From the NCBI GenBank assembly GCA_039649175.1, contig JBBWZS010000020.1:1450-65449 (forward strand): 64,000 nt of DNA, written 5' to 3'. The notes beneath the pieces are model-generated. The model searched no databases, was not told the DNA's origin, and worked only from the letters and a program-made list of their open reading frames with translations. Position 1 is the first letter of the stretch. Every line of letters begins with the position of its first letter. A program made the translations under genes and the position numbers. Source of the stretch: Acidimicrobiaceae bacterium. Lineage in GTDB: Bacteria > Actinomycetota > Acidimicrobiia > Acidimicrobiales > AC-14. This document shows, piece after piece, positions 4,087 to 29,812 of this stretch.

Positions 4087-4089
4087 TGT

Positions 4090-4551: not shown

Positions 4552-4593
4552 ACCCGGGAGTGTGGCCGATGACCGGCTCGCCGACAAGGGGCA

Positions 4594-5430: not shown

Positions 5431-5439
5431 GATAGGACC

Positions 5440-7197: not shown

Positions 7198-7512
7198 CGA
7201 GAGTGGCTCGACCGGCTCCAGTCGTTCAGCCGCCGGGCCGCTCAGGTGCGGGCTGCTCAGGCGCCGGGTCGTCGGGCGGCGCGCCAGCGGGCGGCGCCGG
7301 CTCCTGACCGTCGGGAGCTCGCCGGCCCCGATGGCCGAACAACCTCCCGATGGCGCCCATCAAGCGGGCGAAGGGGTCCGGAAAGATCCCCGGTTCGCCT
7401 TCGACGATCCCGTGCCTCACGGAGGCGATGCTAGGTCGAGCGGGCATCCGCGCCGCCGGAGGCCCTCTTTGGCAGACTTCTGGTCCGGGTACCCTCGAAT
7501 AGGAGCCAAACA

Positions 7513-7989: not shown

Positions 7990-8064
7990 CCACGCCGCTC
8001 TCTCGGGTTCCGGCATCTGGTTGCCGGTCAGCCCGGCCGCGTCGTCAGGAGAAACCGTGTGTCG

Positions 8065-9450: not shown

Positions 9451-9573
9451 GAAGGCCTCCTGGGATGTGAGCTGGGGTGTTCTCTTTCGCGAGTTCTAAC
9501 ACCGCAGGTCCACCGGCGCTCGAGAGCGAAAAAGTGCCCACGTTTTGAGCAACGCCCGTGTATCCTCTTGATT

Positions 9574-10938: not shown

Positions 10939-10947
10939 CCGGCGCCG

Positions 10948-12024: not shown

Positions 12025-12119
12025 CGGCACCTCCCTCTCGTTCTGCGCGCGATTTCTAACCCACCGTGTTGGAGATCGCCCAGAGAACCGAATCGGGGGG
12101 CCGGCGGTAGGCTGGGGCC

Positions 12120-13779: not shown

Positions 13780-13906
13780 CGCCGGCGACGGTAGCTCAGC
13801 GGTCGAAGAATCGCAGGAGTACCGTGGCCGCTTCGAAGGGGCATCTGCGTCGGTCGGACGGCGATGGGAGGGCCACCGTGGGTACAGGCGTCGTGGGTCG
13901 CCGGTC

Positions 13907-16900
13907 GTGAGCGCCGCCGACCGGATCGCATCCTGGCCGGTGCTGCGCCAGTTGCGAGGCGGTGACCCACTCGGTCTCGGACCGGCGGCACAGTCGCCCC
14001 GGTCGGCCTCGCTGGTGCCCCGCACGGAGACCGCCGACAAGGTGGTGGACTCGATCTGCCCGTACTGCGCGGTGGGCTGCGGCCAGAAGGTGTACGTCAC
14101 CGACGGCCAGGTGACCCAGATCGAGGGCGATCCCGACAGTCCCATCTCGCGGGGGCGCTTGTGCCCCAAGGGCTCGGCCAGCCTCAGCCTGGTGACCGCC
14201 CCGGCCCGCGAGCAGAAGGTGAAGTACCGCCGGCCCTACGGCACCGAGTGGGAGGACCTCTCGCTGGTCGAAGCCATGGACCGCATCGCCGACCGGGTCA
14301 TTGCCACCAGGGCCGCAACCTGGCAGGAGCGTGACGACAACGAAGACCTCACCCTCAAGCGCACGCTGGGCTTCGCCAGCCTCGGAGGAGCGACCCTCGA
14401 CAACGAGGAGAACTACCTCATGAAGAAGCTCTACACCGCCCTGGGCGCGGTGCAGGTGGAGAACCAGGCCCGCATCTGACACTCCTCCACCGTCCCCGGT
14501 CTGGGGACCTCGTTCGGGCGGGGCGGCGCCACCACCTTCCAGCAGGACCTGCAGAACGCCGACTGCATCCTCATCCAGGGCTCCAACATGGCCGAGTGCC
14601 ACCCCGTTGGCTTCCAGTGGGTGATGGAGGCCAAGGCCCGGGGGGCGACGGTGATCCACGTCGACCCCCGGTTCACCCGCACGAGCGCCCTGGCCGACAT
14701 CCACGTGCCCATCCGGGCGGGCAGCGACATCGCCTTCCTCGGCGGCATCGTGAACCACATCCTGGCCAACGGGCGCGAGTTCCGCGAGTACGTGGCCGCC
14801 TACACCAACGCCGCGACCCTCGTCGGCGACGGCTTCGCCGACACCGAAGACCTCGACGGCCTGTTCTCGGGCTTCGACGCCGACAACAAGACCTACGACC
14901 CGGCCACCTGGCAGTACGCGGGCATGACCACCGCCACCGCCGCCGCCGGCCACCGCGAGCAGGCGATGGGCGAGGCCCACGGGCACGGGTCGAAGCACCA
15001 GGGGGCGGGTCGCCCCGACAGCGACCCGTCCCTCGAAGATCCCCGCTGCGTCTTCCAGATCCTCAAGCGCCATTTCTCGCGCTACACGCCGGAGATGGTC
15101 GAAGAGATCTGTGGTGTCCCCCCGGAGCTGTTCACCCGGGTGGCCGAGGCCCTGTGCGCCAACTCGGGACGGGAGCGCACCTCGGCGTTCGTGTACTCGG
15201 TGGGCTGGACCCAGCACACGGTGGGGGTGCAGTACATCCGCACCGCGTCCATCATCCAGTTGCTGCTGGGCAACATCGGGCGGCCGGGCGGCGGCATCCT
15301 CGCCCTGCGCGGCCACGCCAGCATCCAGGGCTCCACCGACATCCCCACGCTGTTCAACATCCTCCCCGGCTACCTGCCCATGGTGCCCGCCCGGGGGCCC
15401 GCCGACCTGGCCGCCTACATCGACGCCTACAACGCACCGGCGGGGTTCTGGGGCCACATGGACGCCTACCTGGTGAGCATGCTCAAGGCGTGGTGGGGCG
15501 ACGCCGCCACCGCCGACAACGACTATTGCTTCGACTACCTGCCGAGGATCGACGCCGACCACTCGCACTACCGCAGCACCCTCGACATGGCCGACGGCAG
15601 GGTCAAGGGCTTCTTCGTGGTGGGCGAGAACCCGGTGGTGGGCTCGGCCAACGGCCGCCTCCAGTGCCAGGCTCTGGCCAACCTCGACTGGCTGGTCGTG
15701 CGCGACCTGGTGGAGATCGAGACGGCGGCGTTCTGGTACGACTCCCCCGAGATCGACAGCGGCGAGGCCCGCACCGCCGACATCGGCACCGAGGTGTTCT
15801 TCCTGCCCGCCGCCGCCCACACCGAGAAGGACGGGAGCTTCACCAACACCCAGCGCCTCCTGCAGTGGCACCATGCCGCCGTCGAGCCGGCGGGCGACTG
15901 CCGCTCCGACCTGTGGTTCTACTTCCACCTCGGTCGCATCATCAAGGACAAGCTGGCCCACTCCACCGAGGCGCGCGACCGACCCGTCCTCGATCTCACC
16001 TGGGACTACCCCACCCACGGCCCGACGGCCGAGCCTGACGCCGAGGCCGTCCTCCGGGAGATCAGCGGGTGGGGACCGCACGGGGCCGTCGACGGGTACG
16101 CCGACCTGAAGGCCGACGGGTCCACCGCCTGCGGCTGTTGGATCTACTCGGGCTCCTACGCCGGCGAGGCCAACCAGGCGGCCCGGCGCAGGCCCGGGTC
16201 GGAGCAGTCGTGGGTGGCGCCGGAGTGGGGCTGGGCGTGGCCGGCCAATCGCCGGATGCTCTACAACCGGGCGTCGGCCGACCCCGAAGGCCGGCCCTGG
16301 TCGGCGCGGAAGGCCTACCTGTGGTGGGACGAGGATTCGGGCCGGTGGACCGGTGAGGACGTGGCCGACTTCGTCGCCACCATGCGCCCCGACTACCGGC
16401 CTCCAGAGGGTGCGTCGGCCGAGGACGCCCTGCGCGGCGACGAGCCGTTCGTGATGCAGACCGACGGACGGGGATGGCTGTTCGCGCCGACCGGCCTGGT
16501 CGACGGGCCGTTGCCCGCCCACTACGAGCCCCACGAATCACCGTTCACCAACTCGCTCTACGGCCAGGAGTGCAACCCCGCCCGCCTGATCCACTCCCGG
16601 CGCGGCAACCGCTCCAACCCCGGCGGCGGGCGGCCCGGGGCCGACGCCTTCCCCTACGTGGTGTCGACCTACCGGCTCACCGAGCACCACACCGCAGGTG
16701 GTATGAGCCGGTTCCTCGCCTACCTGTGCGAGCTCCAACCCGCCATGTTCTGCGAGGTCAGCCCCGAGCTGGCAGCCGAGCGGGGGTTGGTGAACGGCGG
16801 CTGGGCCACGGTGGTGACGTCCCGATCGGCCATCGAGGCCCGGGTGCTGGTGACCGAGCGCATGCCTGCGCTGCGCGTGCAGGGCCGCACCGTCCACCAG

Positions 16901-17116
16901 GTGGGCCTGCCCTACCACTGGGGGCGGCGCGGCCTGTCGCCCGGTGACTCGGCCAACGACCTGGCGGGCGTGGTGCTCGACCCCAACGTCCACATCCAGG
17001 AGTCCAAGGCGGCGTCGTGTGACATCCGCCCCGGCCGCCGTCCCCGAGGACCCGACCTCACCCGCCTGGTCGACGAGTACCTGGGCCGCGCCGGTATCAC
17101 GAGTGAGGGACCATGA
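13907..17116 (+). CDS. fdhA: Molybdopterin formate dehydrogenase alpha subunit, selenocysteine-containing (TGA at 14477-14479 read as Sec)
   Basis: Track ORFs 13721..14479 and 14588..17116 are in the same frame and joined through one TGA. Context is ...VQVENQARI-U-HSSTVPGLGTSFGRGGATTFQQD, the FdnG/FdhF-type Sec/Cys site. N-terminal 4Fe-4S motif CPYCAVGCG...CPKG. Start GTG 13907 gives SAADRIASWPVLRQL, which I recall as the usual N-terminus in actinobacterial homologues. Confidence 0.85.
14492..14508 (+). promoter_or_regulatory. SECIS-like hairpin 12 nt downstream of the fdhA UGA
   Basis: GTCCCC-GGTCT-GGGGAC: perfect 6-bp stem with a 5-nt loop GGUCU. From memory, the E. coli fdhF SECIS apical loop has the same loop sequence. 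Confidence 0.6.
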
Positions 17117-17958
17117 TCGCCCGACCCTCGCCGGGCGACCCGGCCACCGATGCCGGCTGGACGACCGACCAGCCCCGGCTCGGGTTCTTCACCGACACGT
17201 CGCTGTGCATCGGCTGCAAGGCCTGCGAGGTGGCGTGCAAGGAGTGGAACGGCGTGCCCGACGACGGCTTCGACTTCTCCGGCACGTCCTATGACAACAC
17301 CGGCGCGCTGGGCGCCGACACCTGGCGACACGTCACGTTCACCGAGAAGCTGGTGCCCGCACCCGGCGGTATCGGTAGCGGTGGCGGTGACGAGGTGCGT
17401 TGGCTGATGTCGTCGGATGTGTGCAAGCACTGCACACACGCCGCCTGCCTCGACGTGTGCCCCACCGGCGCCCTGTTCCGCACCGAGCACGGCACGGTTG
17501 TGGTGCAGGACGACGTGTGCAACGGGTGCGGGTACTGCGTGCCCGCCTGCCCGTTCGGGGTCATCGACCAGCGCCGGGGCGACGGCCGGGTGTGGAAGTG
17601 CACGCTCTGCTACGACCGCATCGGCGCCGGGATGACGCCGGCGTGCGCGCAGGCCTGTCCGACCGAGTCGATCAAGTTCGGCCGCCTCGACCAGCTCCGA
17701 GCCTCCGCCGACGGGCGGGTGACGACCCTGCGCGCCGGGGGCGCCCCCGACGCCCGGCTCTACGGCGCCGACACCACCGACGGCGTCGGGGGGATGGGGG
17801 CGTTCTTCCTCCTGCTCGACGACCCCGAGACCTACGGCCTCCCTCCCGACCCCGTCGTCACCACCCGCGACCTGGCTTCGATGTGGCGGACGGCGGGAGC
17901 GGCCGCTGTCGCCGTGGTGGCCAGCGTGGCCGGGGCCGTACTGGCCGGCCGCCGGTGA
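17113..17958 (+). CDS. fdhB: Formate dehydrogenase beta subunit (4x[4Fe-4S] ferredoxin-type, C-terminal TM anchor)
   Basis: ATGA overlap with fdhA. CIGCKACEVACKEWN, CKHCTHAACLDVCP, CNGCGYCVPACP, CTLCYDR...CAQACP. Hydrophobic tail AAAVAVVASVAGAVLAG. Confidence 0.9.
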   Translation: MIARPSPGDPATDAGWTTDQPRLGFFTDTSLCIGCKACEVACKEWNGVPDDGFDFSGTSYDNTGALGADTWRHVTFTEKLVPAPGGIGSGGGDEVRWLMSSDVCKHCTHAACLDVCPTGALFRTEHGTVVVQDDVCNGCGYCVPACPFGVIDQRRGDGRVWKCTLCYDRIGAGMTPACAQACPTESIKFGRLDQLRASADGRVTTLRAGGAPDARLYGADTTDGVGGMGAFFLLLDDPETYGLPPDPVVTTRDLASMWRTAGAAAVAVVASVAGAVLAGRR

Positions 17959-18010
17959 CCCCTACCCCGGCGTTCCGGTCACGTTTCGGTGGGTCAGGAC
18001 CCACCGAAAC

Positions 18011-18919
18011 GTGACCGGAACCGAGGATGGGGCGGTGCGGACCTACTACGGCCGTCCCGTGCTCAAGGCGCCGGTGTGGAAGTGGCCGATCCCCGTGTAC
18101 TTCTTCACCGGCGGGATGGCCGGCGCCTCGGCCAGCCTGGCCCTGGCTGCCCGCCTGAGCGGTGACGGGGCGCTGGCCCGCCGGTCCCTCGGGGTGGCGG
18201 CACTCGCGGCCGCCGCCAGCCCGCCGCTGCTCATCGCCGACCTGGGCCGCCCCGAGCGGTTCCTCAACATGCTCCGGGTCGCCAAGGCCACCTCGCCCAT
18301 GAGCGTGGGCACCTGGGTGGTGTCGGCCTTCGTGCCCGCCGCCATCGGCGCCGCCGCGTGCGAGCGCACCGGACGCCTGCGCCGGGTCGGCCGGGTGCTC
18401 GAGGCCGTCGCCGGTGCTCTCGGCCCGGTCATGTGCACCTACACCGGCGTCCTGGTGGCCGACACCGCCGTGCCCGCGTGGCACGAGGCGCACCGCGAGC
18501 TGCCCTTCGTGTTCGCCGGCAGCGCCATGGCCAGCGCGGGGGCCGCCGCCGTGGCCCTGTCGCCGGTGGACGGGACCGGGGCGGCCATCGCCCGCCGGCT
18601 CCTGGCCGCCGGCGTCGTGGTCGAGGGGGCGGCCAGCCAGGTGATGGAGCGGGCCCATCCCCATGCCTGTGCGCCCTACCGCGGTGCCGGTCGGGCCGCC
18701 GTCCTGGCCACGACCGCTCGGGCCCTGACGGTGGCGGGGACGGCCGTCGCCCTCACCCTGGGTCGCAGGCGGCGCCCGGCGGCGACCGCGGGCGGCGCCC
18801 TCGTCCTGGTCGGCGCCCTGTGCGAGCGCCTCTGCGTGAGCGAAGCGGGCGTCGAGTCGGCCCGTGACCCGCGGGCCACCATCGGCCCCCAGCGCAGGCG
18901 GCTCGACCAGGCGCGCTGA
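18011..18919 (+). CDS. NrfD/PsrC-type integral membrane (quinone-interacting) subunit of the FDH complex
   Basis: YYGRPVLKAPVWKWPIPVYFFTGGMAGAS and multiple TM segments. Lies directly downstream of fdhB. Confidence 0.8.
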   Translation: MTGTEDGAVRTYYGRPVLKAPVWKWPIPVYFFTGGMAGASASLALAARLSGDGALARRSLGVAALAAAASPPLLIADLGRPERFLNMLRVAKATSPMSVGTWVVSAFVPAAIGAAACERTGRLRRVGRVLEAVAGALGPVMCTYTGVLVADTAVPAWHEAHRELPFVFAGSAMASAGAAAVALSPVDGTGAAIARRLLAAGVVVEGAASQVMERAHPHACAPYRGAGRAAVLATTARALTVAGTAVALTLGRRRRPAATAGGALVLVGALCERLCVSEAGVESARDPRATIGPQRRRLDQAR

Positions 18920-21280: not shown

Positions 21281-22963
21281 TCAACCCTTGGGTGGCGGTG
21301 ACCGCAGCTCGGCATCGGTCGGGGGTGCCAGGTTGCCGTAGGGCGGCACCACCACCGGTGCCTCCTTCCACTGGTAGGGGACGAGATCGGGGCCCACCCG
21401 GTGGCCGCCAGGACCACTGTCGACATCGCCGTCGTGGCGGAAGTGGGCGCCGTACCAGACGACGAGGTCCTGGCGCTCGACGGACTCGCCCGACACCATG
21501 CGGTCGAGGTTGGCCCGTGACAGCGCCGGGTCGGTCGTGAAACCCTGGCCGTCGTCGACCTCGTTGGGGTCGTAGCGCAGGATCCAGACGTCGCCCGCGC
21601 CGTACGTGTCGGCGGTGCCGTCACCGGGCCCGGGGCGGATGGCGTAGCCCTGCGACGCCCTGGTGTTGCGCACCCGCCAGTACCGGCCGTGTTCGGCGCT
21701 GCGGTCCCGGCGGACCTCCAGGCGGATCGTGTGCCAGTTGGCCGTCTCCACCACGGGTGGGTCGTTGTACTCCTGGATCACGTTGCTCTGGGCCTCGAGG
21801 ATGTCGAAGTCGAGGCGCCAGTAGACGTTGTGATGGTGGGCCTGGCAGGTGCACGGGTTCTGGGCGGCGGCGAACCCGAAACGGGGGCGGATGGTGCCGT
21901 CGGCGGCCAGCCGCCACTCGCTGACATAGCGGTACCAACCGGCCTGGAGCTGGCTGACGATCACCAGCTCGTCGCCGTCGAGCCACAGCGCCACGCCCCG
22001 GAAGTTCCCTCCGTCGGCCTGGCTCTCGAGAATGGTCTGCGGCGCGGTGGCACACAGCCGGAAGCCGGCGACAGCCTCGTCGCCTTCGGCGATGAAACAA
22101 CTCTCCTCGTGCTGCCAGTCGCGATAGGTGGGGCCGCAACCGGTCGCGGCCCCGCCGTCGCCGTAGGCGACGTTGAGGATGGGGGCGTGGGCGCGGGACA
22201 GGACCCGCTGGCCCTTGTAGTCGACGGTGCGCAGCTCGACTCCCGAGCCGTTGGTGCCCGACGACGCCGAGGGGCGCACCACGACCAGGTCCCAGAGCAC
22301 GGTGGCACCCCGGCGCACGCGCACACGGGCCTGGCCCACCCCGGCGGTCAGGGCACAGGTCGGGCCTGGGGGCGCCCCACACTCGGCCGCCGAGGGCGCC
22401 ACGATCCCCGCCGGCTCCCGGATGATCTCGGCGTCGAAGGTGCGCACGCCCACGATGCGGTGGCGCCCGCCGCCGCCGTCGCCGTCGGGGGTGCGCAGGC
22501 CCACGGCGATGACCCGGTCGACGGAGCCGTCGGCGTTGTGGATGTTGACCAGGGGTGGCATTGGTCGGTAGGCGTAGGCACCCTCGGGCTCGAGCAGCGC
22601 CGCCATCTCCGGATCGTCGCCCAGGATCGAAACCGCCCAGGTGTGCTCGTCCTCGCTCGGCGGCCACTGGTGGGCGGTCGGGAAGATCTCCGAGCTACCG
22701 GGGTCGTCGAGCCAGCCCTGGACCCGGGCGGACCGACCAGTCGTGGTGTCGTGCACCAGGGTGCTGAAACGGGGGCCGTCCCCATCGTCCTTGTCGACCA
22801 CATCGAAGCCCACCAGCCACAGGTCACCGGCCGGGAAGTGCTGTCGGAGCAGGGGATGCGAAAGGATGGCCTTGGTGGCGGCGGCGTGGGCGGTGGTGTA
22901 GGTCTGCTCGGCGACCACCTCGACTTCGAGGGGCTCTTTGTCCGCTGCGGCTTCCTCTGGCAT
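21281..22963 (-). CDS. Copper amine oxidase-like protein with a divergent active-site motif
   Basis: AHHHNVYWRLDFDI resembles the CuAO HxH...RLDxxIDG block. DLVVWYGAHFRH resembles D(I/V)VxWxTxGxxH (third His). GWYRYVSEWRLAADGTI aligns to GNY(D/E)Y...F..dGtI. ATG 22963 has a GGGAGG RBS. Confidence 0.6.
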   Translation of the reverse strand: MPEEAAADKEPLEVEVVAEQTYTTAHAAATKAILSHPLLRQHFPAGDLWLVGFDVVDKDDGDGPRFSTLVHDTTTGRSARVQGWLDDPGSSEIFPTAHQWPPSEDEHTWAVSILGDDPEMAALLEPEGAYAYRPMPPLVNIHNADGSVDRVIAVGLRTPDGDGGGGRHRIVGVRTFDAEIIREPAGIVAPSAAECGAPPGPTCALTAGVGQARVRVRRGATVLWDLVVVRPSASSGTNGSGVELRTVDYKGQRVLSRAHAPILNVAYGDGGAATGCGPTYRDWQHEESCFIAEGDEAVAGFRLCATAPQTILESQADGGNFRGVALWLDGDELVIVSQLQAGWYRYVSEWRLAADGTIRPRFGFAAAQNPCTCQAHHHNVYWRLDFDILEAQSNVIQEYNDPPVVETANWHTIRLEVRRDRSAEHGRYWRVRNTRASQGYAIRPGPGDGTADTYGAGDVWILRYDPNEVDDGQGFTTDPALSRANLDRMVSGESVERQDLVVWYGAHFRHDGDVDSGPGGHRVGPDLVPYQWKEAPVVVPPYGNLAPPTDAELRSPPPKG

Positions 22964-23112: not shown

Positions 23113-24408
23113 ATGCCCGACATCCCCGAGAACGGTCTGACCCGGCTGGTGCACCAGGTCACCGAGGTGGCCACCGGGCCCGACACCACGTTCGCCGACG
23201 GTCGCCTCACCGTCTCGGCCAAGGCCGCCCGCGAGTGCCTGGCCGACCCCGCCCTGGCTCACGTCGAGGTGACGTGGGCCTCCCCGGGCCAGTCGGTGCG
23301 CATCGTGAAGGTCCTCGACGCCGTCGAACCGAGGACCAAAGGGGCAGGTGGGGGTGGCATCTTCGCCGGCTTCGTCGGCCCCGACCGGGTCCAGGGCCGG
23401 GGATCCACGCACGTGCTGCGGGGGGCGGCGGTCGTGGTCGCCGGGTTCCTGCCCCGGGCCCAGGAAGCGGTGGTCGAGATGTCGGGCCCGGCGGCGGCCC
23501 TGTCACCCCTTGGCGCCACCCACAACCTGGTGGTCGAGTTCACCCCGGCCGAGGATGCTCCCTGGGAGGACGTCGACCGAGCCCTGCGCGGAGGCGCGTT
23601 GCGCCTGGCCGTGCATCTGGCCGATGCCGCCCTCGACACCCCGCCCGATGCCGAGGAGTGGCTGCCCGCCCCCACTCCTCCCACCGGCGGCGGCGGCCGG
23701 TACCGGGTGGGTGCCATCACCAACCTCCAGACCCAGGGCACCTTCAAGGACGTCTTCGTCTACGGCCGCAGCTTCTCGGGGGGCCTGCCCACCCTGATCG
23801 ACCCCGGCGACCTCGACGACGGGGCCGTGGTGAGCGGCCAGTTCGGGCACCCGTCGCTCAAGAACCCCACCTTCATGCATCAGAACCACCCCGTCGTCGC
23901 CGCCCTGCGGGCCCGCCACGGCGTCGACGTCGACTTCGCCGGCGTGGTGATCTCCCCCGAGCCGGTGGTCGCCAGCCAGAAGGAGTTGGTCTCGGCCCAT
24001 GCCGCCCGCCTGTGCGCGGCGGCGGGCTGGGACGCGGCCATCGTCACCAAGGAAGGCGGCGGTAACGCCGACGGCGACGTGGCCCTCAAGATGGACGCCT
24101 TGGAAGACGCCGGGGTGATGGCCGTGGGCCTGTTCGCGGAGATGGCGGGGCCCGACGGCACCGGACCACCCATCGTCGTGCCCCCGGAGCGGGCGACGGC
24201 CATGGTGAGCACCGGCAACTACGACGAGCGCCTGGTGCTGCCTGCCGTCGAGCGGGCCCTCGGAGGCGACGCGGTGGCCCTGGTCGACCGTCCTGCCACC
24301 GACGAGCTGCAGCTGCCGATCGCCGTGGTCTACTGCGCCCTGAGCCCCCTGGGCTGGGGCCACCTCACCTGCGCGCCCGAGGTCGGGACAGAGGTGTTGT
24401 CGGCATGA
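23113..24408 (+). CDS. Glycine/sarcosine/betaine reductase component B substrate-binding subunit (GrdE/GrdG/GrdI family)
   Basis: SPGQSVRIVKVLDAVEPRTKGAGGGGIF, GSTHVLRGAAVV, VEMSGPAA, TNLQTQGTFKDVFVYG, PTLIDPGDLDDGAVVSGQF-GHPSLKNPTFMHQNHPVV, IVTKEGGGN. ATG 23113; the track uses TTG 23104. Confidence 0.8.
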   Translation: MPDIPENGLTRLVHQVTEVATGPDTTFADGRLTVSAKAARECLADPALAHVEVTWASPGQSVRIVKVLDAVEPRTKGAGGGGIFAGFVGPDRVQGRGSTHVLRGAAVVVAGFLPRAQEAVVEMSGPAAALSPLGATHNLVVEFTPAEDAPWEDVDRALRGGALRLAVHLADAALDTPPDAEEWLPAPTPPTGGGGRYRVGAITNLQTQGTFKDVFVYGRSFSGGLPTLIDPGDLDDGAVVSGQFGHPSLKNPTFMHQNHPVVAALRARHGVDVDFAGVVISPEPVVASQKELVSAHAARLCAAAGWDAAIVTKEGGGNADGDVALKMDALEDAGVMAVGLFAEMAGPDGTGPPIVVPPERATAMVSTGNYDERLVLPAVERALGGDAVALVDRPATDELQLPIAVVYCALSPLGWGHLTCAPEVGTEVLSA

Positions 24409-25697
24409 GCCGGGTCGTGCACTACATCAACCAGTTCTTCGCCGGCGTGGGCGGCGAGGACTCGGCCGGCACCCCACCCACGACCCGCCCCGAAGCGGTC
24501 GGACCGGGCCGGCGCCTGGCCCAGCTCATCGGCCCCGACCACGAGGTCGTGGCCACCGTCTTCTGTGGCGACGACCACGCCTCCGGTGACCCGGCGGCCA
24601 TCGCCGAGATCATCGACCTCGTCCGCGCCGCCGAGCCCGACCTGGTGGTGGCCGGGCCCGCCTTCACCAGCGGCCGCTACGGCCTGGCCTGCGCCCGGGT
24701 GGCGGCCGCCGCCACCGCCGCCGGGATCCCCGTCATCGCCTCCATGCACCCCGACAACCCCGGCCTCGACGAGGCGGGCGGCGCTCCCGTCGTGGCCAGC
24801 GGCGAGGTGGCCCGCCAGATGGGGCCGTCACTCGACAGGCTGGCTGCCGCCGTGCGCCGGATGCTGGCAGGCGAGACGCTCACCGCCGACGACGGTCGCA
24901 TCGGCGCCGTGCCCCGCCGGTCACGGGTGGCCACCAGCGATGCCGCCAGCCGGGCCGTCGACCTGGTGCTGGCCCGCCTGGGGGGCGACGCCGCCGCCAC
25001 CGAGGTGCCCCTGCCCCGGTTCGACCACGTCACCCCGGCGGCGCCGGTCGCAGACCTGGCCACCGCCACGCTCGCCCTGGTCACCGAGTCGGCCCTGGTG
25101 CCCGACGACAATCCCGACCACCTCGAGTCGGCCCGGGCCACCAAGTGGTTGCGCTACCCCCTCGACGGCCGTGACTCGCTCACGCCCGGCGAGTGGCGCT
25201 CCGTGCACGGCGGCTTCTCGACGGTGTGGGCCAACGAGGACCCCCACCGCCTCCTGCCCCTCGACGTGGCCCGCCGCCTCGAAGGCGAGGGCCTCATCGG
25301 CAGCCTGTACCCGGCCTACCTCGTGACCGCCGGCAACGGCACGTCGGTGGGCAACGCCCGGCGCTTCGGTATCGAGTGGGCCGCCGACCTGCGCCACTCC
25401 GAGGTCCGGGCCGCCATCCTCACCGCTACCTGAGGCACCGGCACGCGTTGCGGGGCAACGCTGGCAAAAGAGCTCGAACGGGCAGGCATCCCCACCGCCT
25501 TGCTGTGCAACCTGGTGTCGATCGCCCAGCGGGTGGGTGCACCGCGCATCGTGCCCACCAGGGGCATCCCCTACCCCACCGGCGACCCGTCCCTCACCAA
25601 GGCCGACGAGAACGCCTGGCGGCTGCGCCTGGTCAAGACCGCCCTGGGGGCCCTGGCCACCCCGGTGAAGCAGCCCACCGTGTTCGAAGTGGCGTAA
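24405..25697 (+). CDS. Glycine/sarcosine/betaine reductase selenoprotein B family (GrdB/GrdF/GrdH), TGA at 25431-25433 read as Sec
   Basis: ATGA overlap with the upstream gene. MSRVVHYINQFFAGVGGED. Track ORFs 24405..25433 and 25500..25697 are in the same frame through ...AAILTAT-U-GTGTRCGATLAKELERAGIP, the classical GrdB 'LT(S/A)T-U-GTCTRCGAT' site. Confidence 0.85.
25443..25463 (+). promoter_or_regulatory. SECIS-like hairpin 9 nt downstream of the grdB-like UGA
   Basis: cagcgttg-cgggg-caacgctg: 8-bp stem with a 5-nt G-rich loop. Confidence 0.5.
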
Positions 25698-25724
25698 CCA
25701 GCCCACTGTGGCCATCCTGGTCTC

Positions 25725-27218
25725 ATGACCGATCGTGCTGTGATCAGCGGGGCCTCCCAGGTGCTGGCCCACGTCCCCGGGCTGGCCCGTCACGGGTCCA
25801 AGCCCCGGCGGGAGCTGGCCAAAGACGAAGGCGTGCAGAAGGCGTTCCTGGCCGCCCTGCGCAGCACCGGCGAGGCGGTGGCCTACGCGCCCCACCAGGC
25901 GTGGCTGGGGGCCCTCCACCCCCGTGACCTCCCCGAACGGCCTTGGGCCCGCCGGCCCGGGCAGAGCCCGGGAGGCAGTGGCGGCGTCGGCCAGGGAGCG
26001 GCCGAGGCCTCGGCCGGCGGGCCCGACGGCACCATGGTGGGCGAGGAGGAGTTCCTCGGGCTGCTGGCCGTGGTCGACGAGTTCGGCCTCATCACCCTCG
26101 ACCCCGAGGCCGCCGACCGGTCCGCCGCCGCCCTGGCCGCCCACCCCCTGGCCAAGGCCCTCGACCTCGACCTCATCGACCGGGCGCGCGGCGACGCCGG
26201 GAAGGTGGCAGCCGAAGACGGCTCCCTGCCCCTGCACGTCGGTGCCGACCGCCTGGTCGGCGCCGTCCGGGGTGCCCAGGCCGACGACGAGTCGCTGTCG
26301 GCCCACGTCCTGCTCGAGAACCTGGCCTCCAAGGCCACCGCCACCCTGGCCCTGCTCCACCTGCTGGCCGCCGGTGACGTCGACCCGACGTCGATCGACT
26401 ACGTGCTGTCCTGCGGCGAGGAGGCCATCGGCGACCGCTACCAGCGGGGGGGCGGCAACCTGGCCAAGGCCGTCGCCCAGGCGGCCGGGCTCACCGAGGC
26501 GTCGGGCGCCGACATCAAGAACTTCTGCGCCGCCCCGGTGCCCGCCCTGGTGATGGCGTCGGCCCTGGTGGCGTCCGGGGTCTTCCGCCGGGTGGCAGTC
26601 GTGGCCGGGGGATCGCTGCCCAAGCTGGGCATGAAGTTCCAGGGTCACCTGTCCCACGACCTGCCCGTGCTCGAAGACGTCCTCGGCGGCACCGCCGCCG
26701 TCATCGAGGCCGACGACGGCCGCTCGCCCATCGTCCGGCTCGACGCCGTGGGCCGCCACCGGGTGGCCGCCGGCGGGTCGGCCCCCCAGATCATGGAGGC
26801 CCTCGCCGTCGAGCCGCTGGAACGGGTCGGCCTGGCCATGACCGACGTCGACGACTTCGCCACCGAGCTGCACAATCCCGAGATCACCGAGCCCCAGGGC
26901 TCGGGCGACGTGGCCGCCCGCAACTACCGCACCATGGCCGCCCTGGCCGTGCGCCGGGGCGACCTCGAGCGCGACGACCTCGCCCGCTTCGTCACCGAGC
27001 GGGGCATGCCCGGGTTCGCCCCCACCCAGGGGCACCTGGCATCGGCGCTGTGCTACCTGCCCCACGCCCTGCGTCGACTGACCGCCGGGGACGCAGGTAG
27101 GGTCTGCCTCGTCGCCAAGGGAAGCCTGTTTCTCGGACGGATGTGCCAGCTTTCCGACGGCATGAGCATGCTGCTGGAGCGCAACCCGGCCGCCGAATCG
27201 CAGGGGAGGGCGACATGA
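25725..27218 (+). CDS. grdC: Glycine reductase complex component C, beta subunit-like (GrdC)
   Basis: The N-terminus AVISGASQVLAHVPGLARHGS...AYAPHQAWLGAL resembles my recollection of the GrdC N-terminus. Thiolase-like core with NFCAAP. 497 aa. Confidence 0.7.
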   Translation: MTDRAVISGASQVLAHVPGLARHGSKPRRELAKDEGVQKAFLAALRSTGEAVAYAPHQAWLGALHPRDLPERPWARRPGQSPGGSGGVGQGAAEASAGGPDGTMVGEEEFLGLLAVVDEFGLITLDPEAADRSAAALAAHPLAKALDLDLIDRARGDAGKVAAEDGSLPLHVGADRLVGAVRGAQADDESLSAHVLLENLASKATATLALLHLLAAGDVDPTSIDYVLSCGEEAIGDRYQRGGGNLAKAVAQAAGLTEASGADIKNFCAAPVPALVMASALVASGVFRRVAVVAGGSLPKLGMKFQGHLSHDLPVLEDVLGGTAAVIEADDGRSPIVRLDAVGRHRVAAGGSAPQIMEALAVEPLERVGLAMTDVDDFATELHNPEITEPQGSGDVAARNYRTMAALAVRRGDLERDDLARFVTERGMPGFAPTQGHLASALCYLPHALRRLTAGDAGRVCLVAKGSLFLGRMCQLSDGMSMLLERNPAAESQGRAT

Positions 27219-27556
27219 CCACCGTCACCGAGGTCACCAAGGACACCTTCGAAGACCTCACCGCCGAGGGCACCGTCCTCATCGACGTCTGGGGCCCGGC
27301 GTGCGTGCCCTGTGTGGCCCTGACCCCCCACGTCGAGCGCCTGGCCGAGCAGCGACCCGACCTCCAGGTCCTCAAGTTGGAGGCGCCCAAGAACCGGCGG
27401 CTGTGCATCGACATGAAGGTCATGGGCATGCCGGCGTTCCTGCTGTTCCGGGACGGCGCCGAGGTGGCCCGGCTCTCCGACCCCGAGCTCACGCCCGAAG
27501 CTCTCACGTCCTGGCTCGACACCACGCTCGAGACCCTGAACCCCGAAGGGGGGTAA
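27215..27556 (+). CDS. trxA: Thioredoxin with a W-G-P-A-C-V-P-C active site
   Basis: ATGA overlap with grdC and a GGGGAGGG RBS. LIDVWGPACVPCVALTPHVERLA...MPAFLLF. The CVPC redox motif is the one recalled for the Grd-associated thioredoxins of Eubacterium acidaminophilum and Clostridium species. Confidence 0.85.
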   Translation: MTTVTEVTKDTFEDLTAEGTVLIDVWGPACVPCVALTPHVERLAEQRPDLQVLKLEAPKNRRLCIDMKVMGMPAFLLFRDGAEVARLSDPELTPEALTSWLDTTLETLNPEGG

Positions 27557-27562
27557 CACACC

Positions 27563-28048
27563 ATGTTGAAAGACCGTCTGGTCATCGCCCTGGGTGAACG
27601 CGACGGCATCTCCGGCCCGTCCATCGAGGCCTGCGTCCGGGCTGCGGGAGGCAAAGTGGTCTTCGGGGCCACCGAGTGCTTCGTCTGAACCGCAGCCGGA
27701 GCCATGGACCTGCACAGCCAGGAGGCGATTCTCCGCCTGGTGGGTGAGCACGGCCCGCAGAACCTGATGGTGATCCTGGGCGCTCCCGATCCCGAGAGCG
27801 CAGAGATCGCCGCAGAGACTGTGGTGCTGGGCGACCCGTCGTACGCAGGACCATTGGCCGGGGCCCAGTTGGGCCTCGACGTGTACCACGTCCTCGAAGA
27901 CGCCATAAAGGCCGACGTGCCCGACGACGTCTGGGAGGAACAGATCGGCGTGATGGCCGATGTCCTCGACGGCCCTGGTGTGGCCACCGCGGTGGCCGCC
28001 ATGCGCGCCCAGGCACCCGACTCACCGGAGGCACCCGCCACCGCCTGA
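27563..28048 (+). CDS. grdA: Glycine/sarcosine/betaine reductase complex selenoprotein A, TGA at 27686-27688 read as Sec
   Basis: Hand translation: MLKDRLVIALGERDGISGPSIEACVRAAGGKVVFGATECFV-U-TAAGAMDLHSQEAILRLVGEHGPQNLMVILGAPDPESAEIAAETVVLGDPSYAGPLAGAQLGLDVYHV. This matches the GrdA signature CFVUTAAGAMD. The track shows only the post-TGA part (27704..28048). Confidence 0.9.
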
Positions 28049-28060
28049 CCGCTGCGCCAC

Positions 28061-28088
28061 GCGGGGACCGCCGGTCAGCGGTCCCCGC
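28061..28088. terminator. Hairpin between convergent grdA and the LLM gene
   Basis: gcggggaccgc-cggtca-gcggtccccgc: 11-bp perfect stem. The loop contains the stop codon of the minus-strand LLM gene. Confidence 0.5.
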
Positions 28089-29064
28089 CGGCGATGGCCG
28101 GCAACACCTCTTTGTCGTAGAAGCGCAGGAAGCCGTCCTGGTCCGGCCCGATCTGGTGGACCAGGATCTGGCTGTACCCGGCGGCTGCGAACGAGGCGAT
28201 GAGCTCGAGGTGACGGGCCGGGTCGGGCCCGAGGGCGACGGTGCCGACCATGTCGTCCGGTCGGGCCAGGGCGAGCACCCGGGCGAAGTCCTTCGGGTGG
28301 GCCAGCTCGGTCAGGGCCGACCCCTTCAGGGCCCCGTTCGGCCACCAGCGCGCCGCGGTGCGGCGGGCCTCGTCATCGCTGGCGGCCCAACACACGTGAA
28401 CCTGGGCAACACGCGGCTTGCCCGCCCCGCCCGCTCCCTCGAAGGTCTCCACGTGGCGGCTGGAGGGCGTGACCCCGAAGTAGCCGTCGCCGATGCGCCC
28501 GGCGAGGGCGGCACTGGCCTTCGACGAGCCGGCGACCACGATCGACGGTGGTCGTCGCGGCAGGGTGAACAGCTGGGCCTGCTCCACCGTGTAGTGGGTG
28601 CCCCGGTGGTCGACGGTGCCGCCCTCCCACAGCCGGCGGATGACGCCGACCGCCTCCTCCAGCATCTCCCGGCGCTCGTCGGGGCGGGGCCAGCGGGCGC
28701 CGGTGACGTGCTCGTTGAGCCGTTCCCCGGTGCCGACGCCGAGGAAGAAGCGGCCGTCGCAGAGCACGGCCACGGTGGCGGCGGCGTGGGCGATGATGGC
28801 GGGGTGCACGCGGATCAGGGGGGCGGTGACGCCGGTGCCGATGCGGAGCTGCTCGGTGGCCTGGGCGATGGCACCCAGCACCGACCACACGAACGGGCTC
28901 TGACCCTGCTCGGGCACCCACGGGTGGAAGTGGTCGGAGATGCCCGCCAGTCGGAAGCCGATCTCCTCGGCTCGTGCCGCGTTGCGCACCAGCGCCTTGG
29001 GGTCGTGCTCCTCGCACGACAGCCAGTACCCGAGCTCGAGGAGCGGGCGGGCTGCGTCAGCCAC
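28075..29064 (-). CDS. Luciferase-like (LLM class) F420-dependent oxidoreductase, G6PDH-related subfamily
   Basis: LELGYWLSCEEHDPKALVRNAARAEEIGF...ISDHFHPWVPEQGQSPFVWSVLGAIA, GRFFLGVGTGERLNEHV. GTG 29064 overlaps the upstream gene's stop by 8 nt. Confidence 0.8.
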   Translation of the reverse strand: MADAARPLLELGYWLSCEEHDPKALVRNAARAEEIGFRLAGISDHFHPWVPEQGQSPFVWSVLGAIAQATEQLRIGTGVTAPLIRVHPAIIAHAAATVAVLCDGRFFLGVGTGERLNEHVTGARWPRPDERREMLEEAVGVIRRLWEGGTVDHRGTHYTVEQAQLFTLPRRPPSIVVAGSSKASAALAGRIGDGYFGVTPSSRHVETFEGAGGAGKPRVAQVHVCWAASDDEARRTAARWWPNGALKGSALTELAHPKDFARVLALARPDDMVGTVALGPDPARHLELIASFAAAGYSQILVHQIGPDQDGFLRFYDKEVLPAIAGGDR

Positions 29065-29812
29065 CGCCGGTCTCCGCCGCGGCGTGGATCGCGTCGGGGC
29101 GGGCCACACCGACGAGGCGACCGGCCAGGGTCGTCACCACCACCCACGGGGCGGGGCTGTGCGCCAGGTTGGCTGACATCTCCTCGGCGCTCACGTGGGG
29201 CCGGTAGGTGCTGGGCCCCTCCTGCATGACCTCGGCGATGGTGCGGCTGTCCTCCATGCCCAGGGCTTCGGCCCGCACCAGGCCCAGCACCACCCGCTCC
29301 GACGGCGCCGTCACCAGGGCCAGCTCCCACCCGTCGACGCGCGCGCGCACGGCCGACACCTGTTCGTCGAGCGTGCAGGTGGGAACGGTCGCATCGGCCA
29401 GGCTCGACAGTCGGGGCTGATCGGCCAGCGTGCCCTCGAAAGGAAGACCGTCGCCGATCCACTCCATCTTCGAGCCCACGTAGTCGTAGACCTCGGCGAA
29501 CCCCAGGCTCTCGAGCCGCCACGCGGCTCGTGGGCTCATGTCTCAGAGCGAGTCGTAGCAGTAGACGATCACCGGCCGGCTCTGGTCGAGGCGTTCGGGC
29601 GCCAGATCGGCCAGCTCGGTGAGCGGCACGTGCACGGCGCCGGTGATGTGGGACTCGTCCCACTCGGCTTTGGGCATGACGTCGACCAGTTGGGCGCCGG
29701 TGCCCATCAGGCGCTGGACTTCGTGGCGGTCGATCTCGGTGGGCACGAGCAACTCCTTGGCAGTGGCGCAACGGGCGCCCGTACTCCCCTTCCCAGATCG
29801 GCCGTGGCTCAT
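29057..29812 (-). CDS. Rhodanese-CBS pair protein with an in-frame TGA (29543-29545) read as selenocysteine (C-x4-U motif)
   Basis: Track ORFs 29543..30364 (C-terminal part) and 29057..29539 are in the same frame: ...LVDVMPKAEWDESHITGAVHVPL...RPVIVYCYDSL-U-DMSPRAAWRLESLGFAEVYDYVGSKMEWIGDGLPFEG. The rhodanese fold continues uninterrupted across the TGA and is followed by a CBS pair. ATG 29812. Confidence 0.65.
29512..29530 (-). promoter_or_regulatory. SECIS-like hairpin 12 nt downstream of the rhodanese UGA
   Basis: mRNA CGAGCCG-CGUGG-CGGCUCG: 7-bp perfect stem with a 5-nt loop. Confidence 0.45.

What the first reader, a model, noticed from the sequence alone, without database searches (positions are those of the whole stretch)
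23113..28048. Atypical grd-like selenoprotein reductase cluster in a high-GC actinobacterial background
The gene order is grdE/I-like, grdB-like(Sec), grdC, trx(CVPC), grdA(Sec), tightly coupled (ATGA overlaps at 24405 and 27215; 6-27 nt gaps elsewhere). From memory, classical clostridial clusters are grdX-trxB-trxA-grdE-grdA-grdB-grdC-grdD. Here grdD (the subunit recalled to carry the acetyl-thioester and yield acetyl phosphate), trxB and grdX are absent from the cluster and from the whole 64-kb window. Either those functions are encoded elsewhere, or this is a reduced or different reductase. Grd systems are textbook features of strict anaerobes that ferment amino acids. Their presence beside F420-type, FAD-monooxygenase and copper-oxidase genes in an actinobacterial-type genome is unexpected.
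Basis: partly seen in the sequence, partly recalled or inferred. Interest (0 to 1): 0.8.

Follow-up and report, generated by a model that had tools for sequence, protein, structure and literature searches.

The report
GrdD-less, pyruvoyl-less selenoprotein reductase operon
This five-gene operon in an uncultured Acidimicrobiales soil bacterium encodes a two-selenoprotein reductase related to glycine/betaine reductase, but it lacks two parts the textbook enzyme needs, and the same reduced version occurs in at least seven mostly non-fermenting phyla and is not described in the papers I could search.

Summary
There is no grdD, trxB or grdX anywhere in the 64 kb.

It is not a rearranged glycine reductase.
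- In 120/120 homologues and in every main-clade locus where it could be read, the GrdE-like protein has Gln-Phe/Tyr/Leu where GrdE has the Asn-Cys self-cleavage site. No pyruvoyl group can form, as in betaine reductase GrdI and fluoroacetate reductase FarE.
- The GrdB-like selenoprotein has UxxGxxC instead of UxxCxxC. It fails the published GrdB and GrdF motifs and every NCBIfam class cut-off. It scores lower against those models than GrdB and GrdH do across classes.
- 75 related loci (1.21 Mb; Acidimicrobiia, Thermoleophilia, Gemmatimonadota, Dormibacterota, Chloroflexota, Methylomirabilota, Binatia and others) contain no grdD. All 9 canonical loci have grdD directly after grdC.
- GrdD relatives are few in the library of 1.84 billion cluster representatives. 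None that carries a name comes from these phyla.

Best reading: a pyruvoyl-independent reductase acting on an acetate with a good leaving group. The carboxymethyl group passes through Sec on GrdB-like and GrdA to GrdC Cys268. The acetyl unit is then released without GrdD. The substrate and the released product are unknown.

This is a new variant of a known kind.

The parts
23113..24408 (+). grdE/grdI-like substrate-specific subunit of 'protein B' (431 aa), predicted to stay uncleaved and carry no pyruvoyl group
   Evidence: PF09338 313 bits. NCBIfam GrdG 202 bits against a cut-off of 780, and FarE 108 against 675. The site aligned to the canonical 'SGN|CVSACDKN' reads 'SGQFGHPSLKNPT'. It is Gln-Phe/Tyr/Leu in 120/120 homologues and in all main-clade loci where it could be read.
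24405..25697 (+). grdB-like selenoprotein (430 aa), Sec343 encoded by the TGA at 25431-25433, motif TAT-U-GTG-TRC (UxxGxxC)
   Evidence: Translation. PF07355 362 bits. TIGR01918 subfamily 415 bits, which passes. GrdF 422/800, GrdH 377/775 and GrdB 376/602 all fail. The TGA is kept in 76/76 relatives, and the main clade always has UxxGxxC. It fails the published GrdB and GrdF motifs.
25434..25471 (+). SECIS hairpin for the grdB-like Sec codon
   Evidence: Rfam RF01990 SECIS_4, 40.9 bits against a gathering score of 38, E=5.4e-6.
25725..27218 (+). grdC ('protein C' beta subunit, KAS III-like core), 497 aa, present without its usual partner GrdD
   Evidence: NF040746 533 bits against 450, plus DUF5940 and ACP_syn_III. 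Cys268 aligns with the nucleophilic Cys of KAS III/FabH in profile searches. Clade signature: His383 in 76/76 and Cys443 in 71/76.
27215..27556 (+). Grd-type thioredoxin (113 aa, redox motif CVPC), start overlaps the grdC stop (ATGA)
   Evidence: PF00085 59 bits. The best NCBIfam model is clostridial TrxA, 80 bits, below its cut-off. A Trx-like match was found in 56 of 76 variant clusters (window included), mostly C-x-P-C.
27563..28048 (+). grdA selenoprotein A (161 aa), Sec42 encoded by the TGA at 27686-27688, motif CFV-U
   Evidence: Translation. PF04723 188 bits. NF040748 191 bits against 130. The TGA is kept in 80/80 relatives. No SECIS was recognised.
28051..28098 (.). strong G+C-rich hairpin between the convergent grdA and F420-LLM genes, probably the end of the operon
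   Evidence: RNA fold of 28046-28100 gives -36.8 kcal/mol, z = -4.15, and 0 of 200 shuffles fold as well. There is no T-run, so the consensus terminator scan did not list it.

Best explanation
The operon encodes a self-contained, selenium-dependent reductase of the glycine/sarcosine/betaine reductase superfamily. It belongs to a distinct class that is pyruvoyl-independent and works without GrdD.

Proposed mechanism; step 1 is inferred from the sequence data, steps 2-4 and 6 by analogy with the characterised Grd systems, and step 5 is speculative.
1. The uncleaved GrdE-like subunit and the GrdB-like selenoprotein bind a substituted acetate X-CH2-COO-. X must be a good leaving group, because no Schiff base can be formed. 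A quaternary 'onium' group as in glycine betaine is the leading guess. A halide or another leaving group is possible.
2. Sec343 of the GrdB-like protein attacks the alpha carbon and displaces X. This gives a Se-carboxymethyl enzyme.
3. The carboxymethyl group passes to Sec42 of GrdA.
4. GrdC converts the selenoether into an acetyl thioester on its FabH-like Cys268. GrdA is left as a Se-S species.
5. The acetyl group leaves GrdC directly, most plausibly to CoA by reversal of the FabH priming step, or to water. There is no GrdD Cys and no obligatory acetyl phosphate.
6. The operon's CVPC thioredoxin, recharged by the housekeeping NADPH-thioredoxin reductase, reduces GrdA again.

Shown here: the gene content, the two Sec codons, the loss of the Asn-Cys site, the UxxGxxC motif, the conserved absence of grdD, and the clade-specific GrdC residues. 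Not shown: the substrate, the released product and the physiological role.
For: Gene identities pass the curated models for GrdA and GrdC and the selenoprotein B subfamily model.

No pyruvoyl group: Gln-Phe/Tyr/Leu replaces Asn-Cys in 120/120 homologues and in all main-clade loci where it could be read. The betaine subunit GrdI of the E. gilvus cluster also lacks the Cys. PMC10838667 states that FarE and GrdI lack the processing cysteines and are not proproteins.

A distinct class:
- The published GrdB and GrdF motifs (PMC9751293) are matched by 7/7 canonical GrdB proteins and by none of the ~68 GrdD-less-clade proteins tested.
- Positive controls pass their models (GrdH 798 against 775, GrdB 946 against 602). 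Cross-class scores are 469-709, while the window protein reaches only 376-422.

No GrdD:
- None in the window.
- None in 75 related loci totalling 1.21 Mb. 53 of these have at least 5 kb downstream of grdC.
- All 9 canonical loci have grdD directly after grdC.
- No other gene is conserved beside the five.
- An exhaustive HMMER search of 1.84 billion representatives finds only 108 GrdD-like proteins at E<=1e-30. The high-GC ones that carry names are Bacillota, Symbiobacteriaceae and, through named relatives of P0258, Desulfovibrio/Deltaproteobacteria.

GrdC co-variation:
- Cys268 is invariant and aligns with the FabH nucleophile.
- His383 occurs in 76/76 GrdD-less GrdCs against Gln in 15/17 GrdD-linked ones.
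- Cys443 occurs in 71/76 GrdD-less GrdCs against Pro in 18/18 GrdD-linked ones.

Functional constraint: both Sec codons are retained across at least seven phyla, and a SECIS follows the grdB-like Sec codon.
Against: - Whole genomes could not be searched. A grdD elsewhere in these genomes is not strictly excluded, and many GrdD-like representatives carry no taxon name.
- Cys443 is absent from 5 GrdD-less GrdCs (L024, L075-77, L078), so it cannot be a universal replacement for the GrdD thiol.
- The position of His383 and Cys443 relative to the active site could not be established. Profile alignments to FabH cover only the N-terminal core.
- No transporter, regulator or riboswitch points to a substrate.
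- No cultured organism carries the system among the 80 best species hits, so no physiology is available.
- No SECIS was demonstrated for grdA.
Confidence: 0.62

Rival explanations
1. It is an ordinary glycine or sarcosine reductase, as many automatic annotations say. The genes are merely rearranged, and grdD, trxB and grdX lie elsewhere on the chromosome.
For: Sources name relatives 'glycine reductase' or 'sarcosine reductase'. The best NCBIfam hits are the sarcosine models GrdG and GrdF. The motif TxGNxTxV of the published GrdB pattern is present. Whole genomes were not searched.
Against: - The Asn-Cys processing site needed for the pyruvoyl group that binds glycine or sarcosine as a Schiff base is missing in all members.
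- The full GrdB and GrdF motifs fail.
- Scores lie far below the cut-offs and below cross-class scores.
- grdD is absent from all 75 related loci, while it follows grdC in 9/9 canonical loci.
Confidence: 0.05
2. It is a true betaine reductase: a functional equivalent of GrdHI that releases trimethylamine. It differs from the clostridial enzyme only in how the acetyl group is released.
For: Like GrdI, the GrdE-like protein lacks the processing Cys and has an aromatic residue at that site (SGQF against SGSF). Betaine is a common osmolyte in soils (my knowledge). Apart from fluoroacetate, this is the only characterised pyruvoyl-independent chemistry in the family.
Against: - The GrdH model scores 377 against a cut-off of 775, no better than the GrdB model. 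A real GrdH passes at 798.
- Identity to GrdH and GrdI (39% and 33-34%) is no higher than to GrdB and GrdE (41% and 32%).
- No BCCT or Opu transporter lies next to any locus, unlike the E. gilvus cluster.
- UxxGxxC differs from the UxxCxxC of GrdH.
Confidence: 0.2
3. It is a reductive dehalogenase or detoxifying enzyme for haloacetates or similar alkylating acetates, analogous to the fluoroacetate reductase FarEB.
For: FarE is also unprocessed, and FarB has also lost Cys residues of the UxxCxxC motif. FarE is the second-best NCBIfam hit. Such a role would need no energy conservation and so no GrdD (inference).
Against: The FarE score is 108 against a cut-off of 675. That is lower than the scores of GrdE (201) and GrdI (172) against the same model. 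The far system described uses the organism's GrdA and protein C and adds a radical-SAM gene, which is not seen here.
Confidence: 0.08
4. The cluster is a decaying remnant, or an annotation artefact in which the TGA codons are real stops.
For: All carriers are MAGs. No SECIS was found for grdA.
Against: - Five intact, translationally coupled genes are conserved at 60-95% identity across at least seven phyla. Both TGA codons are kept, and strongly conserved coding sequence continues after them.
- A SECIS above the Rfam gathering score follows the grdB TGA.
- selA and selB lie next to the cluster in 7-9 loci.
- A third Sec gene (fdhA) lies in the same window.
Confidence: 0.02

Closest known systems
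Betaine reductase of Peptoclostridium (Eubacterium) acidaminophilum type: GrdH/GrdI + GrdA + GrdC/GrdD + TrxA/TrxB. Represented here by the Enterococcus gilvus pCR1A cluster (L005).
   Same: - Selenoprotein B plus an unprocessed partner subunit without the pyruvoyl-forming Cys.
- GrdA with CxxU.
- GrdC with the FabH-like Cys.
- A dedicated non-WCGPC thioredoxin.
- Presumably the same carboxymethyl-selenoether chemistry.
   Different: - No GrdD.
- No trxB or BCCT transporter in the cluster.
- Gene order is E-B-C-T-A instead of trxB-trx-A-C-D-I-H.
- UxxGxxC instead of UxxCxxC.
- The GrdH model scores 377 against a cut-off of 775.
- 39% and 33-34% identity to GrdH and GrdI.
- The hosts are non-fermenting soil lineages.
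Glycine reductase (GrdE/GrdB + GrdA + GrdC/GrdD), e.g. Acetoanaerobium noterae (L006) and loci L080-L086.
   Same: Same five protein families. Both selenoproteins are present. GrdA and GrdC pass the same curated models.
   Different: - The Asn-Cys self-cleavage site is lost, so there is no pyruvoyl group.
- The published GrdB motif fails (AHGGxD and GPxF[NF]AGRYG are not met).
- There is no GrdD, so no known route to acetyl phosphate and ATP.
Fluoroacetate reductase FarEB of Cloacibacillus porcorum (PMC10838667; NCBIfam NF053623).
   Same: The E-type subunit is unprocessed, cysteines next to Sec are lost, and the substrate carries a leaving group that needs no Schiff base.
   Different: The FarE model scores only 108 bits against a cut-off of 675. 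Far relies on the organism's own GrdA and protein C encoded elsewhere, and the paper predicts acetyl phosphate as the product. The operon here carries its own GrdA and GrdC but no GrdD.
PlsX-FabH pair of fatty-acid and phospholipid synthesis (E. coli plsX-fabH, L090).
   Same: The core of GrdC aligns with KAS III/FabH, including the acyl-accepting Cys. GrdD belongs to the PlsX family PF02504. The two genes are adjacent in E. coli, as grdC and grdD are in canonical clusters.
   Different: Here only the FabH-like half is kept. Whether it hands acetyl to CoA, as FabH does in reverse, is untested.

Membership tests
Glycine/sarcosine/betaine reductase superfamily (Grd system in the broad sense) | Selenoprotein A with CxxU | tested here: met
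   NF040748 191 bits against a cut-off of 130. ECFV-U with an in-frame TGA.
Glycine/sarcosine/betaine reductase superfamily (Grd system in the broad sense) | Selenoprotein B family member with Sec, paired with a PF09338 subunit | tested here: met
   TIGR01918 415 bits against 65. PF07355 and PF09338 both match. The TGA is followed by a SECIS_4 match.
Glycine/sarcosine/betaine reductase superfamily (Grd system in the broad sense) | Protein C made of two subunits, GrdC and GrdD | tested here: not met
   GrdC is present (533 bits against 450). GrdD is absent from the window and from 75 related loci by Pfam, tblastn and a GrdD profile. Whole genomes were not searchable.
Glycine reductase (GrdB/GrdE) | GrdE proprotein with an Asn-Cys self-cleavage site that yields a pyruvoyl group | tested here: not met
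   The site reads Gln-Phe in the window and Gln-Phe/Tyr/Leu in 120/120 homologues.
Glycine reductase (GrdB/GrdE) | GrdB equivalog model TIGR01917 and the published GrdB motif (PMC9751293) | tested here: not met
   376 bits against a cut-off of 602 (control GrdB 946). The motif fails at GPxF[NF]AGRYG, AHGGxD and RV[IL]PxD.
Sarcosine reductase (GrdF/GrdG) | NCBIfam GrdF and GrdG models, and the published GrdF motif (IHGGYDR, TTGTGT) | tested here: not met
   GrdF 422 against 800 and GrdG 202 against 780. The motif is absent.
Betaine reductase (GrdH/GrdI) | GrdH model NF040795 | tested here: not met
   377 bits against a cut-off of 775. The control E. gilvus GrdH scores 798.
Betaine reductase (GrdH/GrdI) | Unprocessed partner subunit that lacks the pyruvoyl-forming Cys | tested here: met
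   SGQF in the window against SGSF in GrdI, with no Cys at the site.
Betaine reductase (GrdH/GrdI) | Reduces glycine betaine to trimethylamine plus an acetyl unit | not testable with these tools
   This needs an enzyme or cell assay.
Fluoroacetate reductase (FarEB) | FarE equivalog model NF053623 | tested here: not met
   108 bits against a cut-off of 675.
D-proline reductase (PrdA/PrdB) | PrdA and PrdB equivalog models; the system has no GrdA or GrdC | tested here: not met
   PrdA 41 against 700 and PrdB 63 against 300. GrdA and GrdC are present.

The most novel reading that the evidence does not exclude
A previously unrecognised class of selenium-dependent 'carboxymethyl' reductase is widespread in uncultured lineages from soil and other environments. 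These include Acidimicrobiia, Thermoleophilia, Gemmatimonadota, Dormibacterota, Chloroflexota, Methylomirabilota and Binatia. The class acts on a substrate other than glycine, sarcosine or betaine. It has dispensed with GrdD, so its FabH-like GrdC releases the C2 unit directly as acetyl-CoA or acetate rather than as acetyl phosphate. That would uncouple Grd chemistry from Stickland-type ATP synthesis and turn it into an assimilatory or redox-balancing reaction in organisms that are mostly respirers.
Probability: 0.35. Interest if true: 0.8.

Novelty: new variant of a known kind. Interest (0 to 1): 0.66.

Why it matters
Grd enzymes are textbook markers of strictly anaerobic amino-acid fermentation. 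Surveys use grdB, grdE and grdH to infer glycine reduction or trimethylamine production.

- This clade is abundant: more than 1,250 protein clusters, and at least 73 GTDB species among the 80 best hits. It is currently annotated as 'glycine/sarcosine/betaine reductase', yet it cannot use the glycine mechanism and lacks the subunit that makes acetyl phosphate. Automatic pathway calls for these soil lineages are therefore probably wrong.
- A natural GrdD-less system gives a way to test what GrdC and GrdD each do. That question has been open since the GrdD Cys359 work (as I recall it).
- It also enlarges the set of selenoproteins kept by lineages generally regarded as aerobic. That runs against the view, restated in a 2026 review, that aerobes rarely retain them.

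Tried and rejected
- Literature searches for Grd systems in Acidimicrobiia, Thermoleophilia or Actinobacteria found nothing relevant. A search for 'grdD' alone was swamped by unrelated acronyms.
- No solved structure matches any of the three large proteins by sequence. I did not run structure prediction, because the tool returns no coordinates and so could not test whether Cys443 or His383 lie near Cys268.
- Profile alignment of the C-terminal half of GrdC to FabH was not significant (probability 0.4%). I therefore dropped the idea of a thiolase-like Cys-His-Cys triad as a claim.
- A SECIS for grdA was not found by Rfam at a relaxed threshold, by single-sequence folding, or by RNAalifold on 30 sequences.
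- A substrate clue from neighbours failed. Clustering all flanking ORFs of 76 loci (the window region included) gave no conserved partner. Pfam-annotated contexts differ from locus to locus.
- The copper-amine-oxidase-like neighbour is kept only in close Acidimicrobiales relatives (7 loci) and matches its family only weakly. I do not count it as part of the system.
- The contig holding this window could not be retrieved with annotation; only 5.6-kb and 6.5-kb JGI contigs were returned.
- I considered that high-GC GrdD homologues might belong to these phyla. The best candidate, P0258, turned out to be Desulfovibrio-type.

Full report
**1. What is in the window**

Window 23113-28048 (+) carries five tightly packed genes.

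| Gene | Coordinates | Key evidence |
|---|---|---|
| grdE/I-like | 23113-24408, 431 aa | PF09338, 313 bits |
| grdB-like | 24405-25697 | in-frame TGA at 25431-25433, ...ILTAT-U-GTGTRCGAT...; PF07355 362 bits; TIGR01918 415 bits |
| grdC | 25725-27218 | NF040746, 533 bits against a cut-off of 450 |
| thioredoxin | 27215-27556 | redox motif CVPC |
| grdA | 27563-28048 | in-frame TGA at 27686-27688, ECFV-U-TAAGAMD; NF040748 191 bits against 130 |

An Rfam SECIS_4 match above its gathering score follows the grdB TGA at 25434-25471. A very stable hairpin closes the operon between grdA and the convergent F420-dependent LLM gene. It lies at 28051-28098, folds at -36.8 kcal/mol and has z = -4.15.

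The GrdE-like protein is 100% identical to one that NCBI names 'MAG: Acidimicrobiaceae bacterium'. The window is 69-77% G+C.

**2. What is missing from the window**

I translated GC3-selected stop-to-stop ORFs covering most of the window and scanned them against Pfam. There is no PF02504 (GrdD/PlsX-type) protein and no thioredoxin reductase.

I fetched reference clusters from two annotated records.
- The Enterococcus gilvus pCR1A betaine reductase cluster, trxB-trx-grdA-grdC-grdD-grdI-grdH-BCCT (L005).
- The Acetoanaerobium noterae glycine reductase cluster, trxB-trxA-grdE-grdA-grdB-grdC-grdD (L006).

tblastn with their GrdD and TrxB found nothing in the window. A GrdD profile searched against the six-frame translation found nothing even at E<=10. 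GrdX candidates, the small ORFs directly upstream of trxB in L006 and L083, have no match either.

**3. The protein B pair is not a glycine, sarcosine or betaine reductase by any class test**

*Cleavage site.* Canonical GrdE proteins read ...SGN|CVSACDKN... at the self-cleavage site, where the Cys becomes the pyruvoyl group. The window protein reads ...SGQFGHPSLKNPT... All 120 database homologues (71-100% identity) have Gln-Phe/Tyr/Leu at this site. So do all main-clade genomic loci where the site could be read. The betaine subunit GrdI of E. gilvus also lacks the Cys (SGSF). [quoted passage not shown] It also states that glycine and sarcosine need a carbonyl for Schiff-base activation. The enzyme here therefore cannot use the glycine/sarcosine mechanism.

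*Sec motif.* The Sec motif is UxxGxxC in the whole main clade, against UxxCxxC in GrdB and GrdH.

*Published motifs.* The GrdB and GrdF motifs of Nobu et al. (PMC9751293) are matched by 7/7 canonical GrdB proteins and by none of the ~68 proteins of the GrdD-less clade.

*NCBIfam class models, with positive controls.* The controls pass their own models. The window protein scores lower against each model than GrdB and GrdH do across classes (469-709 bits), so it lies outside all three known classes.

| Query | GrdB model (cut-off 602) | GrdF model (cut-off 800) | GrdH model (cut-off 775) |
|---|---|---|---|
| Window GrdB-like | 376 | 422 | 377 |
| A. noterae GrdB | 946 (passes) | 709 | 563 |
| E. 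gilvus GrdH | 469 | 548 | 798 (passes) |

The same holds for the E-type subunit. Against the GrdG model the window protein scores 202, GrdI scores 345 and GrdE scores 668.

*Identities.* The GrdB-like protein is 39% identical to GrdH and 41% to GrdB. The GrdE-like protein is 33-34% identical to GrdI and 32% to GrdE.

**4. Absence of GrdD is a clade character**

I scanned one genome per GTDB species with a GrdC alignment. At least 590 loci were found and the best 80 were kept.

Ranks 1-73 share 47-89% GrdC identity with the window. They come from Acidimicrobiales, Solirubrobacterales/Thermoleophilia, Gemmatimonadales, Dormibacterota, Chloroflexota, Methylomirabilis, Binatia, Deltaproteobacteria and Thermodesulfobacteriota. 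All are MAGs. Ranks 74-80 (about 42% identity) are Bacillota and Varibaculum.

Mapping reference proteins onto every locus gave these results.
- The main clade has the order E-B-C-(T)-A.
- A few deep branches have B-E-C-A.
- L078 carries three GrdE-like paralogues.
- L075-77 carry C-T-A alone.
- None of these loci has GrdD.
- All nine canonical loci have grdD directly after grdC. Where the upstream region is present, they also have trxB upstream.

In numbers, 75 variant loci total 1.21 Mb. 67 have at least 1.5 kb downstream of grdC and 53 have at least 5 kb. There is no GrdD hit, and TrxB occurs in only one locus, L053. A GrdD HMM against the six-frame translation of everything fetched matched only the nine canonical loci.

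Clustering all flanking ORFs showed no further conserved gene. Pfam-annotated contexts of five relatives differ completely outside the five genes.

**5. Could GrdD be encoded elsewhere in these genomes?**

I could not search whole genomes, so I searched the GrdD family itself. A GrdD profile was run with HMMER against 1.84 billion cluster representatives. It found only 658 proteins at E<=1e-3 and 108 at E<=1e-30, many of them fragments.

Amino-acid composition flagged several high-GC members. The ones that carry names are Bacillota and Symbiobacteriaceae. The most actinobacterium-like candidate, P0258, has relatives named Desulfovibrio and Deltaproteobacteria, with a Synergistaceae GrdD among the more distant hits. 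No named GrdD comes from a phylum that carries the variant. Meanwhile the variant GrdE-like family alone has more than 1,250 clusters.

This is strong but indirect evidence. Many representatives are unnamed.

**6. GrdC co-varies with the loss of GrdD**

Cys268 (NFCAAP) is invariant in all GrdCs. In profile searches against PDB and against E. coli FabH, it aligns with the acyl-accepting Cys of KAS III.

Several columns separate GrdD-less GrdCs from GrdD-linked ones.

| Position | GrdD-less GrdC | GrdD-linked GrdC, including GrdC-GrdD fusions |
|---|---|---|
| 383 | His in 76/76 | Gln in 15/17 |
| 443 | Cys in 71/76 | Pro in 18/18 |

The exceptions at position 443 are L024, L075-77 and L078. Cys443 therefore cannot be a universal substitute for the GrdD thiol. 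I could not place either residue relative to the active site.

**7. Mechanism proposed**

Established Grd chemistry, from the Andreesen-school biochemistry as summarised and from my own knowledge, runs as follows. Sec of protein B takes the carboxymethyl group. GrdA Sec receives it. Protein C turns it into an acetyl thioester. GrdD Cys359 passes the acetyl group to phosphate. Thioredoxin re-reduces GrdA.

Here every actor except GrdD and the pyruvoyl group is present and under constraint. The most economical reading has three parts.
- The substrate bears a good leaving group, such as an onium group as in betaine, or a halide.
- The carboxymethyl relay is unchanged.
- The acetyl group leaves GrdC Cys268 directly, to CoA by reversal of FabH priming, or to water. 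This step is speculative.

The substrate is unknown. Nothing in the neighbourhood points to one.

The neighbouring genes in the window include several that look oxygen-dependent:
- an SBP56/methanethiol-oxidase-like protein;
- a flavin amine oxidase;
- a weak copper-amine-oxidase-like protein.

An F420-dependent LLM oxidoreductase also lies next to grdA. Together with the known habits of these phyla (my knowledge), this suggests respiring hosts. A role in assimilation or redox balancing then seems more likely than Stickland ATP synthesis. This is inference.

**8. Comparison and novelty**

The system works most like betaine reductase, which is also pyruvoyl-independent. It fails the GrdH membership test and lacks GrdD. 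It is a member of the Grd superfamily in the broad sense, but of none of its characterised classes.

The full-text library holds no description of it. The one survey that looked across GTDB filtered by GrdB and GrdF motifs, which these proteins fail.

I rate it a new variant of a known kind, with an interest score of about 0.66. It is a widespread, coherent and testable deviation in a textbook enzyme system. Substrate, product and physiology remain unproven, and whole-genome absence of grdD still has to be checked.

Noticed in passing
window 13718-17116 (+), TGA at 14477-14479: A formate-dehydrogenase-type molybdopterin subunit reads through an in-frame TGA at the classic position (ENQARI-U-HSSTVPGLG). 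A weak SECIS_3 match lies at 14474-14535 (24.6 bits, below its gathering score). The gene sits in a cluster with FdhD (12943-14235, -), a 4Fe-4S subunit (17107-17958), an NrfD-like membrane subunit (17723-18919), DUF6457 and MobA. It is a third selenoprotein gene in the window.
   Followed up: partly
window 21281-22963 (-); also L004, L008, L009, L011, L025, L042: A 560-aa protein is transcribed divergently from the grdE-like gene. It matches Cu_amine_oxid only weakly (32 bits) and matches no NCBIfam model. It stays next to the cluster in 7 Acidimicrobiales loci but not in other lineages. Its function and any link to the reductase are unknown.
   Followed up: partly
L018, L019, L029, L034, L037, L038, L040, L059, L061 (upstream of the cluster): Genes that look like selA and selB by sequence motifs lie beside the GrdD-less cluster in 7-9 loci (Solirubrobacterales, a Dormibacteria MAG and an Actinomycetota MAG). 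I did not check them with family models. If correct, this reductase may be a main user of selenocysteine in those genomes.
   Followed up: partly
window 28075-29109 (-); homologues in L011, L057, L075, L077, L078: An F420-dependent LLM-class oxidoreductase (TIGR03557, 407 bits) lies convergent to grdA. Homologues recur near the cluster in five other loci from three phyla. This may be chance, because the family is large in these genomes, or it may hint at a link to F420 redox metabolism.
   Followed up: no
L075, L076, L077 (Chloroflexota), about 10001-12475: These loci carry grdC-trx-grdA with no grdB or grdE homologue within the fetched flanks (up to 10 kb each side), and their GrdC has Pro instead of Cys443. 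The A-C module seems to exist apart from any protein B genes in these genomes.
   Followed up: partly
L078 (Binatia) 2593-11555; L069-L071 7353-11866: Deep branches of the GrdD-less clade carry other protein B types. L078 has three grdE-like paralogues with one grdB-like gene. The Proteobacteria and Binataceae loci have the order B-E-C-A, with 'APYWN' at the cleavage-site position and UxxSxxC. This suggests several substrate specificities feed the same GrdD-less module.
   Followed up: partly
proteins P0245, P0260, P0266, P0267, P0395: Natural GrdC-GrdD fusion proteins of 840-890 aa exist. The only one that carries a taxon name, P0266, is from a Bacillota MAG. All of them have Pro at GrdC position 443. 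They are the opposite extreme to the GrdD-less systems.
   Followed up: partly
window 8065-9495 (-): An SBP56 family protein (selenium-binding protein/methanethiol oxidase family; Pfam 618 bits). It is far below the NCBIfam MtoX cut-off (95 bits against 650).
   Followed up: no
window 27689-27745 (+) and 30 related loci (alignment A4): The grdA Sec codon has no recognisable SECIS. There is no Rfam match at E<=10, the fold is no better than shuffled sequence, and RNAalifold predicts no consensus pairs across 30 diverse sequences. Yet the TGA is conserved in 80/80 genes.
   Followed up: yes
loci L007-L079: All 73 GrdD-less loci among the 80 best GTDB species hits are metagenome-assembled genomes. 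No isolate appears, so no cultured model for this system appears among these hits.
   Followed up: no
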